From the human T2T-CHM13v2.0 reference genome, Homo sapiens: a stretch of 64,000 nucleotides of DNA. Of this stretch, positions 6,516 to 64,000 are shown piece after piece. The first letter of the stretch is position 1. Every line of letters begins with the position of its first letter. A program made the position numbers and the translations under genes. The stretch lies in assembly GCF_009914755.1 (NCBI RefSeq), contig NC_060925.1; one strand, written 5' to 3'. The notes beneath the pieces were generated by a model that made no database searches, was not told the DNA's origin, and was given only the letters and a program-made list of their open reading frames with translations.

Positions 6516-7409
6516 CTTAGAAAGACTTTGTGGGTATACTAATCTAGCCCCTACGATCAGCTAGAGGCAGACGAAAGAATAAAGAATACTGGGACACTGA
6601 CAAAATCAAAGTACATTAGAGTCTAAATTATGTCTCATTTTGAATGCAGAATGTTTTAAATCAGTTTCACCTCATTCTGAACCTAACACTACTTCCCGTA
6701 AATTTTACCAGGATAATACTCTTCATATTTTCTATACAGAAGAAAAAATACTTAACAACTAATGGCGTTTAAAAGCCTTTCTAAGTAATTCGAACAGACC
6801 CCCAGCTTTCCAGGTTAACTAAGAAGTGGAAAAGAGGCATCTGTTATCTCAGCTGAAGAAGTGTAGATAGGAGGCTCCTCTTTTTTTTCTCTTTTTCCAC
6901 CTGAATCTGACCATGGGATTCAAAAGCTTAGTGAGAAGTTACAAAAGTGAGTGCTTTTTTTCTTTTTGAAAGTGATTTCCTATTTCATGAAGGTGCATGA
7001 TAAAGAGAAAACGTTATGAATAAACATGAGATAAAAAAGAGGTCAAAGAATAGCACTACCAAGTCAACAAATGAAGTAACAAAAATCAACAATTTACAAT
7101 GTTACTTTCCCCTAAAAAACTTAAAGAACTTTCTTGTTAAAAGAGAGTAAAACGCTACTTTGCCTAAGAAACTATACATTCTTCACACTAAGCTCTACTT
7201 CTTTTGTGTTTTCTTCTCACAGTGGAGAAATATGTCATATACACAATGGTAGTTTTACAAAGTGGTTGCCCAAATGACTGAATGACACTGAATCTCTCTT
7301 CTGGGTAAATACTGGAGAAGCTTTATTAGTGCCTTCCAGCTCAAGAGAAAACTGAGGTACCTAGAAGCTGAAGCTTAAATAAGTGATGCAAAAACAATTG
7401 AAAAAATAG

Positions 7410-63400: not shown

Positions 63401-63513
63401 AAGACACAGAGTCTAGGCTTAGCTCTGCCACTTACTAGCCAGGTAACTTTGGGCAAGTCACAAATGCATTCTGGGTCTCAAAATCTCTTCACCTGTTTTA
63501 AAAAGTAAATGGA

Positions 63514-63675
63514 AGCCAGGTATGGTGACACGTGCCTGTACTCCTGGCTACTCGGGAAGCTGAGGTGGGAAGATCGCTTGAGCCCAGGAGCTTGAGGCCA
63601 TAGTGCACAATGATTGTGCCTGTAAATGACCAGCCTGGGTAACATAGGACCTGTCTCTTAAAAAATAAATAAATA
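63514..63675 (+). mobile_element. Old Alu monomer (FAM/FRAM-like); its A-tail is the target of the RAP1GDS1-L1 insertion
   Basis: A single diverged Alu arm ending in tctctt aaaaaataaataaata. Confidence 0.8.
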
Positions 63676-63878
63676 GAGACGGAGGTAGAGGGAGGACACA
63701 GAGCCGCGCCGCCTGCACCAGAGACCTTCGCCTCGCCCCGCCGGTTCCTCACCCTCGGGGAGCAACATGGATAATCTCAGTGATACCTTGAAGAAGCTGA
63801 AGATAACAGCTGTTGACAAGACTGAGGATAGTTTAGAAGGATGCTTGGATTGTCTGCTTCAAGCCCTGGCTCAAAATA
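63676..63878 (+). pseudogene. RAP1GDS1: Retrocopied spliced RAP1GDS1 (SmgGDS) 5'UTR plus exons 1-2, carried as an L1 5' transduction
   Basis: A GC/CpG-rich leader precedes an ATG at 63767 encoding MDNLSDTLKKLKITAVDKTEDSLEGCLDCLLQALAQN, the recognised SmgGDS N-terminus. No intron is present. The match stops at c.112 and the ORF ends K-stop at 63883. Confidence 0.9.
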
Positions 63879-63892
63879 AATGATTCAGTGTA

Positions 63893-64000
63893 GGGGGGAG
63901 GAGCCAAGATGGCCGAATAGGAACAGCTCCGGTCTACAGCTCCAGCGTGAGCGACACAGAAGACGGGTGATTTCTGCATTTCCATCTGAGCTTTGAAGAG
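63893..64000 (+). mobile_element. 5' end of a young L1 (L1PA2/L1HS-like) with a spliced 5'UTR (SpIRE 97/622 type); continues past the window
   Basis: GGGGGGAGGAGCCAAGATGGCCGAATAGGAACAGCTCCGG...TTTCCATCTGAG is L1 nt 1-97. It is followed directly by CTTTGAAGAG (L1 ~nt 622) instead of the unspliced GTACCGGG. Confidence 0.92.

What the first reader, a model, noticed from the sequence alone, without database searches (positions are those of the whole stretch)
63676..64000. Retrotransposed RAP1GDS1(exon1-exon2)-L1 chimeric mRNA: a spliced 5' transduction inside the SRGAP2 intron
Seen: directly after an Alu A-tail there are ~90 nt of CpG-rich leader, an ATG (63767) encoding MDNLSDTLKKLKITAVDKTEDSLEGCLDCLLQALAQN, a 14-nt linker (aatgattcagtgta, 63879-63892), and then nucleotide 1 of a young L1. 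Known: the peptide is the SmgGDS/RAP1GDS1 N-terminus, from a gene on another chromosome. As I recall the gene structure, exon 1 ends at ATGG and exon 2 ends at c.112, exactly where the match stops. Inference: transcription began at the RAP1GDS1 promoter, exons 1-2 were spliced onto a cryptic acceptor just upstream of a sense-oriented full-length L1 in RAP1GDS1 intron 2, and the whole mRNA was retrotransposed here. A host promoter would thus have driven L1 mobilisation and shuffled coding exons into the human-duplicated brain gene SRGAP2. 5' transductions are rare. I recall early human-genome analyses reporting one of about this length (~217 nt here), so this event may already be described.
Basis: partly seen in the sequence, partly recalled or inferred. 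Interest (0 to 1): 0.92.

Follow-up and report, generated by a model that had tools for sequence, protein, structure and literature searches.

The report
Host-gene-driven L1 copy carrying RAP1GDS1 exons
A jumping-gene (L1) copy with a crippled promoter was transcribed from the RAP1GDS1 gene, spliced to that gene's first two exons and pasted into an SRGAP2 intron before SRGAP2 duplicated; the reading is correct, but the event is already published.

Summary
After an Alu-type A-rich tail come 95 nt of RAP1GDS1 exon 1, 108 nt of exon 2, 14 nt of RAP1GDS1 intron 2, then nucleotide 1 of an L1.

The progenitor still sits on chr4, in sense orientation inside RAP1GDS1 intron 2. An acceptor-like TTCTCTTTTCAG lies exactly 14 nt upstream of it.

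- The 14-nt "linker" is the progenitor's own target-site duplication. It recurs after the L1 poly-A, followed by 105 nt of chr4 intron (a 3' transduction), a second A-rich tail and the real duplication.
- The L1 lacks 5'UTR nt ~98-622, with GT...AG borders. It is a SpIRE97/622 element.
- Sibling copies lie on chr10 (full length) and chr2 (5'-truncated).
- Three chr1 copies reflect the SRGAP2 duplications.
- All ORF-breaking lesions are private to single copies.
- The chr1 launch preceded the chr10 launch.
- The insertion is antisense to SRGAP2B, and nothing shows exon shuffling into its mRNA.

The event is Figure 6 of Law et al. (Cell Genomics 2026; bioRxiv 2025). Parent and daughters were also catalogued, with transduction scored "No", by Larson et al. 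2018. It is therefore already known, and interest is low to moderate.

The parts
63505..63659 (+). Alu-family element whose A-rich tail was the integration target
   Evidence: blastn finds 10 other matches in the window (79-90% identity); sequence.
63660..63673 (+). 5' copy of the target-site duplication of this insertion (AAAAAATAAATAAA). The next two bases (TA, 63674-63675) are ambiguous. The 3' copy lies outside the window, within extrapolated 69523-69561.
   Evidence: The same TSD is listed for the SRGAP2C-copy in Law et al. Table S5, with cleavage site TT/AAAA.
63676..63770 (+). RAP1GDS1 exon 1 (5'UTR plus ATGG), 95 nt; the start is ambiguous by 1 nt
   Evidence: matches chr4:101576430-101576528; on chr4 the block ends ATGG|GTAAGT.
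63771..63878 (+). RAP1GDS1 exon 2, 108 nt, ends at c.112
   Evidence: chr4:101608361-101608469, 100% identity. CAG|ATAATC...AAAATA|GTAAGT.
63767..63883 (+). 38-codon open frame (RAP1GDS1 N-terminus plus K) ending at a TGA inside the linker. It acts as an upstream ORF relative to L1 ORF1.
63879..63892 (+). 14 nt of RAP1GDS1 intron 2 lying between the cryptic acceptor AG and the progenitor L1. This is the 5' copy of the progenitor's own ('fossil') target-site duplication. Its 3' copy (ATGATTCAGTGTA) lies outside the window at extrapolated 69405-69417.
   Evidence: chr4 reads TTCTCTTTTCAG|AATGATTCAGTGTA|GGGGGGAGG; the same 13 nt recur after the L1 poly-A in the chr1, chr10 and chr2 copies; on chr4 itself 11 nt (GATTCAGTGTA) follow the poly-A.
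63893..64000 (+). L1 (L1PA2 per Law et al. and Larson et al.) from nucleotide 1. The element continues OUTSIDE the window (extrapolated coordinates, read from locus L007): ORF1 ATG at 64275; ORF2 ATG at 65356; L1 poly-A at 69388-69402; fossil 3' duplication at 69405-69417; 105-nt 3' transduction of RAP1GDS1 intron 2 at 69418-69522; second A-rich tail plus 3' target-site duplication at 69523-69561. Both ORFs are broken in this copy.
   Evidence: the first 97 nt match full-length L1 5' ends genome-wide (40 of 1499 candidates scored); the 3' transduction matches chr4:101640896-101641011 at 99%; it is contiguous with the L1 poly-A on chr4.
63990..63991 (+). Intra-5'UTR splice scar (CCATCTGAG|CTTTGAAGAG); 524-525 nt are missing
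   Evidence: in 4 of 5 unspliced genomic L1s the missing piece starts GT and ends ...TCTGACAG, at L1 nt ~98 to ~622; the chr4 progenitor already has the scar.

Best explanation
The window holds one of three paralogous copies of a single retrotransposition event.

1. An L1PA2 RNA had lost nt ~98-622 of its 5'UTR by splicing, which makes it a SpIRE97/622 element. It inserted in sense orientation into RAP1GDS1 intron 2 on chr4 and created the duplication (A)ATGATTCAGTGTA.
2. Transcription from the RAP1GDS1 promoter produced a pre-mRNA in which exon 1 joined exon 2. Exon 2 then joined a pre-existing acceptor (TTCTCTTTTCAG) 14 nt upstream of the L1.
3. The transcript read through the L1's own poly-A signal. 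It was polyadenylated about 118 nt further on, inside the intron.
4. This chimeric mRNA was reverse-transcribed by target-primed reverse transcription into the A-rich tail of an Alu in an SRGAP2 intron, antisense to the gene. It carries a 217-nt 5' transduction, a 5.5-kb L1 and a ~118-nt 3' transduction.
5. The SRGAP2 segmental duplications later copied the locus to SRGAP2B (this window) and to the chr1:121.3-Mb paralogue.
6. The same progenitor later launched a chr10 copy and, at an undetermined time, a 5'-truncated chr2 copy.

Shown by sequence: all junctions, the duplications, the source locus and the order of the chr1 and chr10 launches.

Inferred: that the host promoter was needed because the 5'UTR deletion disables the L1 promoter (taken from Larson 2018 and Law 2026); that the L1's own proteins did the work in cis; and, my own inference, that loss of the 5'UTR donor kept the L1 body as a terminal exon.
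For: Mapping of the 5' segment: the 217 nt map to two chr4 blocks, three chr1 copies and one chr10 copy, 6 hits of 6 candidates.

Splice sites: canonical GT and AG sites sit at both exons on chr4.

Source locus: one search shows a polypyrimidine tract plus AG, then the 14-nt linker, then the L1 on chr4. The progenitor has the same 5'UTR scar. One search places exon 3 at chr4:~101658106, so intron 2 spans 101608470-101658105 and contains the L1 (101635397-101640895).

3' side: the L1 poly-A is followed by the same 13 nt, then 105 nt that map immediately 3' of the chr4 L1, then a second A-rich tail and the target duplication.

Independent siblings: one search shows the chr10 copy has its own duplication (GAAAGTCTGTTT), starts at exon-1 nt 14 and ends at a different poly-A site. 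Searches show the chr2 copy has its own duplication (AAAATGCAGAAACTA) and a 202-nt transduction.

Splice scar: the missing 5'UTR piece has GT...AG borders in 4 of 5 unspliced L1s examined.

Coding state: all 13 indels outside the poly-A tract (11 in the ORFs) and all 6 premature stops are private to one copy each. ORF1 has 338 codons and ORF2 has 1275.

Polarisation: chr4 is the derived state at 31 of the 34 sites where it differs from all daughters. Five sites are derived in chr4+chr10 only.

Literature: Law et al. 2026 describe the same event and report three ONT reads with the exon-to-L1 splice. Larson 2018's table lists the parent and both full-length daughters as SpIRE97/622.
Against: - No empty allele or ape orthologue could be examined, so the integration is inferred from its hallmarks alone.
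- The chr1 target duplication lies in low-complexity A/T sequence, so its exact length is uncertain. It is 14 nt in Law's Table S5.
- Branch lengths are uneven. Since the chr1 launch, chr4 shows 36 substitutions against about 16-22 on the chr1:205.6-Mb lineage. chr10 shows about 50. Dating is therefore soft.
- The strong RAP1GDS1 start codon creates a 38-codon upstream ORF ahead of ORF1, which should lower ORF1 translation from the chimeric RNA.
- Mobilisation in cis is not proven.
Confidence: 0.95

Rival explanations
1. Same chimeric mRNA, but mobilised in trans by proteins from another active L1, in the way processed pseudogenes are made. The RNA's own ORF1p and ORF2p were not used.
For: The 38-codon upstream ORF with a good start context (AACATGG) precedes ORF1 by about 390 nt and should hamper ORF1 translation. 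Today every copy is coding-dead.
Against: No frameshift or premature stop is shared between copies, so the source showed no shared nonsense or frameshift lesion when it launched. There were three independent launches from one locus, two of them full length. That pattern fits the known cis preference of L1 better than rare trans events. Missense inactivation cannot be excluded.
Confidence: 0.12
2. Two independent insertions: an L1 with its own target-site duplication ATGATTCAGTGTA landed next to an unrelated retro-fragment of RAP1GDS1. This is in effect how Larson 2018's table scored the copy (TSD 14, transduction 'No').
For: The L1 alone is flanked by a perfect 13-nt direct repeat. Larson's table gives TSD 14 and EN site TCAT/T for this very copy, and TSD 16 for the chr10 copy.
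Against: - The same repeat flanks the L1 in the chr10 and chr2 copies, and 11 nt of it still follow the poly-A on chr4.
- The sequence after the 3' repeat is chr4 intron, not SRGAP2 intron.
- There is no poly-A between the exon 2 part and the L1.
- An outer duplication and a second A-rich tail enclose the whole unit.
- The identical composite exists on chr10 with a different outer duplication.
Confidence: 0.01
3. Template switching or trans-splicing: L1 reverse transcriptase jumped from the 5' end of an L1 RNA onto an unlinked RAP1GDS1 mRNA (the U6/L1-type chimera), or two separate RNAs were joined.
For: The RAP1GDS1 part runs to the mRNA 5' end, as the 5' partners of template-switch chimeras do (recalled general property).
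Against: - The junction is not exon-to-L1. It goes through 14 nt that lie in the genome directly between an AG acceptor and the L1, in the same gene, the same strand and the next intron.
- The break is exactly at the exon 2 donor.
- Two independent daughters have the identical junction.
- The 3' transduction ties the RNA to the same chr4 locus.
Confidence: 0.02
4. Serial model: the chr10 copy is a granddaughter launched from the chr1 chimeric copy, using promoter activity retained in the captured exon-1 fragment.
For: The chr10 copy starts 13 nt inside exon 1 and ends 6 nt short of the chr1 3' transduction, so it could formally be a sub-transcript of the chr1 copy.
Against: - chr10 shares five derived substitutions with chr4 that all chr1 copies lack. 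All 5 outgroup L1s support this, and 4 of the 5 changes are not CpG transitions.
- chr10 has none of the chr1-stem changes.
- Only 2 of the 34 chr4-versus-rest sites could be shared-derived in the daughters.
Confidence: 0.01

Closest known systems
RAP1GDS1/L1PA2 chimeric insertions of Law et al., 'Comparative genomics reveals LINE-1 recombination with diverse RNAs' (Cell Genomics 2026, PMC13174262; bioRxiv 10.1101/2025.02.02.635956), Figure 6 and Table S5
   Same: It is the identical event. The paper reports one chr10 insertion and three chr1 insertions 'owing to segmental duplication', a source L1PA2 in RAP1GDS1 intron 2, a cryptic acceptor about 15 bp upstream, a 5'UTR deletion of nt 99-624, and promoter co-option. 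I read section 14 in full, further passages, and Table S5 in passages plus part 1 of 3.
   Different: - The table lists the chr1:121.3-Mb paralogue; this window is the SRGAP2B paralogue.
- All eight 'transduction' passages of the main text concern 5' transduction or are reference titles. I saw no statement on the 3' transduction, on the linker being the source's own duplication, on the chr2 5'-truncated sibling, on launch order, or on shared versus private ORF lesions.
- Figures, the PDF supplements and parts 2-3 of Table S5 were not read and may cover some of this.
SpIRE97/622 elements (Larson et al., PLoS Biol 2018, PMC5860796)
   Same: The L1 lacks 5'UTR nt ~98-622 with GT...AG borders. The supplementary table lists this very copy as SpIRE(97/622)-6 (SRGAP2B, Opp.), the chr4 parent as -35 (RAP1GDS1, Same) and the chr10 copy as -79.
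   Different: - That table scores all three as separate elements with 'No' transduction. It takes the inherited 12-16-nt repeat as each element's own duplication.
- Here the splice happened once, in the RNA that made the chr4 parent, and was inherited by the daughters.
- Three of the 10 PA2 rows I read are therefore one family.
- The paper's abstract calls SpIREs generally evolutionary dead ends. This parent was not one.
L1 3' transduction (Goodier et al. 2000 and Pickeral et al. 2000; seen only as entries in Larson's reference list; mechanism recalled)
   Same: The layout is L1 poly-A, then unique source-flank sequence, then a second poly-A, then the target duplication. The flank maps immediately 3' of the progenitor.
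   Different: Here it is combined with a spliced 5' transduction in the same RNA, so both copies of the progenitor's duplication travel with the element.
SVA elements carrying a spliced first exon of MAST2
   Same: A host gene's promoter and first exon are spliced onto an intronic retroelement, and the chimera is then retrotransposed.
   Different: That case involves a non-autonomous SVA that then founded a subfamily. Here the element is an autonomous-type L1 with three detected daughters and no detected granddaughters.
U6/L1 and other template-switch chimeric retrocopies (mentioned in the Law et al. abstract; properties recalled)
   Same: Non-L1 RNA sequence is fused 5' of L1 sequence within one pair of target-site duplications.
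   Different: The junction here is genomic cis sequence behind an AG acceptor, not an RNA-to-RNA switch point.

Membership tests
Spliced mRNA/L1 5' transduction (cis-splicing class of Law et al.) | Non-L1 sequence contiguous with the L1 5' end and enclosed by the same target-site duplications | tested here: met
   the outer duplication AAAAAATAAATAAA sits at 63660-63673 and again within extrapolated 69523-69561. There is no poly-A between the exon part and the L1.
Spliced mRNA/L1 5' transduction (cis-splicing class of Law et al.) | The non-L1 part maps to the exons of one gene, joined at canonical splice sites and starting at the first exon | tested here: met
   there are two chr4 blocks. Exon 1 ends ATGG|GTAAGT. 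Exon 2 is bounded by CAG| and |GTAAGT.
Spliced mRNA/L1 5' transduction (cis-splicing class of Law et al.) | A source L1 in the same gene, in sense orientation, downstream of the last captured exon, with an acceptor at the junction | tested here: met
   TTCTCTTTTCAG lies 14 nt upstream of the chr4 L1. The L1 is inside intron 2, about 26.9 kb after exon 2 and about 17 kb before exon 3.
Spliced mRNA/L1 5' transduction (cis-splicing class of Law et al.) | The chimeric RNA is detectable | not testable with these tools
   No RNA data are available here. Law et al. report three ONT reads, two from brain and one from testis.
SpIRE97/622 | 5'UTR lacking about nt 98-622, with the missing piece bounded by GT...AG in unspliced L1s | tested here: met
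   524-525 nt are missing, with the donor CTGAG|GTACCG and the acceptor TCTGACAG|CTTTGAAG, in 4 of 5 L1s examined. The fifth lacked an exact 3' anchor.
SpIRE97/622 | The splice occurred in the RNA that made this particular copy | tested here: not met
   the chr4 progenitor DNA already carries the scar, so the daughters inherited it. The copy has SpIRE structure but is not an independent splicing event.
L1 3' transduction | Unique sequence between the L1 poly-A and a second poly-A plus duplication, mapping directly 3' of a source L1 | tested here: met
Target-primed reverse transcription insertion | Target-site duplication, 3' poly-A, and an A/T-rich endonuclease-type target | tested here: met
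   and Table S5 (TT/AAAA). The exact duplication length is uncertain because the target is a low-complexity Alu tail.
RAP1GDS1 processed pseudogene | Contains the 3' exons and poly-A tail of the mRNA | tested here: not met
   only exons 1-2 (203 nt) are present. The frame stops in the linker.
Template-switch (U6/L1-type) chimera | A junction between two unlinked RNAs, with no cis genomic counterpart | tested here: not met
   the junction sequence exists contiguously on chr4.

The most novel reading that the evidence does not exclude
The promoter-dead chr4 SpIRE acted as a repeat-launching source that depended on the RAP1GDS1 promoter, and it has at least three independent germline daughters.

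- It launched the SRGAP2 copy first.
- It launched the chr10 copy after five further substitutions in the source.
- It also launched a 5'-truncated chr2 copy, which I did not see reported.

The SRGAP2 insertion carries only about 3-5 stem substitutions in 5.6 kb before the first SRGAP2 duplication. It may therefore be specific to the human lineage and serve as a built-in clock and marker for the SRGAP2 paralogue family.
Probability: 0.3. Interest if true: 0.4.

Novelty: already known. Interest (0 to 1): 0.3.

Why it matters
The event shows that an L1 whose internal promoter was removed by splicing can still spread if it lies in sense orientation in an intron of a broadly expressed gene. The host promoter and the spliceosome deliver it as a terminal exon. 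That qualifies the view that spliced L1 copies are dead ends. It also shows how L1 can pick up new 5' sequence.

This has been argued in print by Law et al.; the present work confirms it independently on the T2T assembly. It adds a practical lesson. A progenitor's target-site duplication travels with a doubly transduced element and can be mistaken for the daughter's own. That appears to have happened in a curated catalogue, where three rows are really one family.

For SRGAP2 biology, the insertion is a shared neutral marker that predates the duplications. It sits antisense in an intron. Nothing found here suggests it alters SRGAP2 products.

Tried and rejected
- MAFFT alignment of spliced versus unspliced 5'UTRs misplaced the gap. 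I replaced it with exact anchoring.
- Searching for phrases containing a prime sign fails. One search gave an error, and one search returned 0 hits for '5 transduction' although the text has it. I listed all 'transduction' passages instead.
A search for '215 bp' plus transduction terms listed nothing relevant by title (listing only).
- Law's Table S5 has no lineage or age column.
- Rejected readings are argued under the rival explanations: two independent insertions, template switching, chr10 as a granddaughter of chr1, and a DNA-level duplication from chr4. The last fails because the introns are removed and poly-A tails and duplications are present.
- Dating with a fixed clock was abandoned as imprecise. 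Lineage counts since the same event differ about two-fold.
Outgroup L1 copies were used only site by site.
Those features are now described in text under the in-window L1 part.

Full report
**Observation.**
- An Alu-family element lies at 63505-63659. It matches 10 other places in the window. It ends in the tail AAAAAATAAATAAATA at 63660-63675.
- From 63676 there are 91 nt of CpG-rich leader, with 9 CpG by my count on the sequence.
- The ATG is at 63767. The frame reads MDNLSDTLKKLKITAVDKTEDSLEGCLDCLLQALAQNK and stops at TGA 63881-63883.
- The 14-nt linker aatgattcagtgta is at 63879-63892.
- An L1 5' end (GGGGGGAGGAGCC) starts at 63893.

**Mapping of the 5' segment.** I searched the window's own assembly with 63676-63892. 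This gave 6 hits from 6 candidates:
- the window itself;
- two more chr1 sites (205.60 Mb and 121.32 Mb, minus strand, 99-100% identity);
- one chr10 site (query 14-217, 98%);
- two chr4 blocks, query 1-99 and query 95-203.

On chr4 the first block ends ...ATGG|GTAAGT. The second is CAG|ATAATC...AAAATA|GTAAGT, 108 nt.

**The rest of the element.** Extending beyond the window (coordinates extrapolated):
- The L1 runs to a poly-A at 69388-69402.
- Next come GC and ATGATTCAGTGTA (69405-69417), the same 13 nt as the linker.
- Then 105 nt of unique sequence (69418-69522).
- Then an A-rich tail that contains a second copy of AAAAAATAAATAAA (69523-69561).

The L1 alone is thus flanked by one direct repeat. 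The whole 5.9-kb unit is flanked by another.

**The source.**
- The 105-nt segment maps to chr4:101640896-101641011. It also maps to the chr1 paralogues, to chr10 and to a new chr2 site, 6 hits of 6 candidates.
- On chr4 it directly follows an L1 3' end and poly-A.
- The 5' end of that L1 reads ...GTGATTCTCTTTTCAG|AATGATTCAGTGTA|GGGGGGAGGAGCC.
- I located exon 3 at chr4:~101658106 (TCTCTTTTAG|ATACGG..., continuing the reading frame, using a short recalled motif).
- Intron 2 therefore spans 101608470-101658105, about 49.6 kb. The L1 (101635397-101640895) lies inside it in sense orientation.
- The linker is the 5' copy of the progenitor's own target-site duplication. The daughters carry both copies of that duplication because they carry both flanks.

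**The 5'UTR gap.**
- Both the window copy and the chr4 progenitor jump from CCATCTGAG to CTTTGAAGAG.
- I examined five unspliced genomic L1s (these came from 40 scored of 1499 candidates). Four had both anchors. In these the missing piece is 524-525 nt, starts GTAC and ends ...TCTGACAG, at L1 nt ~98 to ~622. The fifth lacked an exact 3' anchor.
- This is the SpIRE97/622 structure of Larson et al. 2018. Because the progenitor DNA already has the scar, the daughters inherited it.

**Siblings.**
- The chr10 copy starts at exon-1 nt 14. It has its own duplication, GAAAGTCTGTTT, and its 3' transduction ends 6 nt earlier.
- The chr2 copy keeps only about 158 nt of L1 3' end and poly-A. It has the fossil repeat and 202 nt of chr4 flank (4 differences in 204 sites). 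It has its own duplication, AAAATGCAGAAACTA.
- The chr2 copy lies beside an exon matching Pfam IF4E (E 2.3e-5, below the curated cut-off because it is a fragment).
- The three chr1 copies share all junctions and the same target. They therefore reflect duplication of one insertion.

**Comparison of copies.** The comparison covered about 5,620 aligned sites.
- Pairwise divergence: chr4 versus chr1:205.6 Mb is 1.18%, chr4 versus the window copy is 1.69%, and chr4 versus chr10 is 1.76%.
- Site patterns: chr10-private 56, window-copy-private 41, chr4-versus-rest 34, chr1:121 Mb-private 32, chr1:205.6 Mb-private 17, chr1-stem 8, shared by the window copy and the 121-Mb copy 5, and 13 sites in other patterns.
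- I polarised two-state sites with five outgroup L1 copies.
  - chr4 is derived at 31 of its 34 sites. At 2 sites chr4 keeps the outgroup state, and 1 site is ambiguous.
  - chr10 is derived at 48 of 56 sites.
  - Of the 8 'stem' sites, 5 are in fact derived in chr4+chr10. All 5 outgroups are unanimous at these sites, and 4 of the 5 changes are not CpG transitions. Two are derived on the chr1 stem. One lies in the 3' flank, where the L1 outgroups do not apply.
- The daughters are therefore siblings. The chr1 launch preceded the chr10 launch. The sites that point the other way sit where the outgroups themselves disagree.
- With only about 3-5 stem substitutions against 13-17 private ones on the chr1:205.6-Mb lineage, the insertion is not much older than the first SRGAP2 duplication.
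- The chr4 lineage shows 36 changes since the same event. Using recalled rates and duplication dates, I place the insertion only roughly, at 4-8 million years ago.

**Coding state.**
- In the alignment frame, ORF1 has 338 codons and ORF2 has 1275. The natural stops are shared by all five copies.
- There are 13 indels outside the poly-A tract, 11 of them in the ORFs. Each is private to one copy.
- There are 6 premature stops, also each private to one copy.
- Every copy has ORF1 disrupted today. For the window copy.
- The source therefore had no shared nonsense or frameshift lesion at the time of the launches. That is consistent with mobilisation in cis, but it does not prove it.

**Relation to SRGAP2B.** The hub table puts SRGAP2B on the minus strand, while the insertion is on the plus strand. 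Larson's table also says 'Opp.'. No annotated exon overlaps the insertion. 'Exon shuffling' into SRGAP2 is therefore physical only.

**Literature.**
- Law et al. (Cell Genomics 2026, PMC13174262; I read section 14, further passages and parts of Table S5) describe exactly this event.
  - They report one chr10 and three chr1 insertions, with the chr1 number attributed to segmental duplication.
  - They place the source L1PA2 in RAP1GDS1 intron 2, with a cryptic acceptor about 15 bp upstream and a deletion of nt 99-624.
  - They report three ONT reads with the splice, and they interpret the event as promoter co-option.
  - Their main text does not mention the 3' transduction, the fossil duplication, the chr2 sibling, launch order or the lesion-sharing test. 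Figures and PDF supplements were not seen.
- Larson et al. 2018 (PMC5860796; passages, supplement passages and part 1 of 2 of supplementary file 2) list the window copy as SpIRE(97/622)-6, the parent as -35 and the chr10 copy as -79.
  - Each is scored with 'No' transduction, and the inherited repeat is taken as its TSD.
  - These are 3 of the 10 PA2 rows I read.
- Only Law et al. among the 9 papers holding both gene names concerns L1, judging by titles.
- Lander et al. 2001 could not be consulted.

**Verdict.** It is already published, so novelty is 'already known'. The increments here are:
- the double transduction with a carried-over duplication;
- a third daughter on chr2;
- the launch order;
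- the private-lesion test;
- the catalogue mis-scoring.

Noticed in passing
G000 chr2:233045837-233046247 (locus L015 pos 1328-1738): A third daughter of the chr4 progenitor. It has about 158 nt of L1 3' end and poly-A, the fossil repeat ATGATTCAGTGTA, 202 nt of RAP1GDS1 intron 2 and its own duplication AAAATGCAGAAACTA. It lies in sense orientation just downstream of an exon matching Pfam IF4E (E 2.3e-5). I did not see it mentioned in Law et al.'s main text.
   Followed up: partly
Larson et al. 2018 supplementary table (pbio.2003067.s005.xlsx), rows SpIRE(97/622)-6, -35, -79: The parent (chr4) and two daughters (SRGAP2B copy, chr10) are listed as separate SpIREs with transduction 'No'. Their TSDs of 14, 12 and 16 nt are the progenitor's inherited duplication. 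Other rows may hide similar parent-daughter sets.
   Followed up: partly
L007 / L009 / L010 (the three chr1 paralogous copies of the insertion): Private substitutions over about 5.6 kb are 41 in the SRGAP2B copy and 32 in the chr1:121.3-Mb copy, but only 17 in the chr1:205.6-Mb copy. Only 5 are shared by the first two. The duplicated pericentromeric copies seem to change about twice as fast as the ancestral-locus copy.
   Followed up: no
G000 chr10:45363570-45369400 (locus L008, minus strand): The chr10 daughter has the longest private branch (48-56 substitutions) although it is the younger launch. Its flanks look like the reverse complement of L1 coding sequence, so it appears nested antisense in an older L1.
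   Followed up: no
window-extrapolated 69523-69561 (locus L007 pos 6523-6561) versus L009 and L010: The window (SRGAP2B) copy has one more AAAT unit in the 3' A-rich tail than the other two paralogues. The two bases between the L1 poly-A and the fossil repeat differ: GC, GA and GG respectively.
   Followed up: no
chr4:101635370-101635382 versus chr4:101658095-101658105: The cryptic acceptor used by the chimera (TTCTCTTTTCAG) closely resembles the natural exon 3 acceptor of RAP1GDS1 (TCTCTTTTAG). It lies about 22.7 kb upstream of it in the same intron.
   Followed up: no
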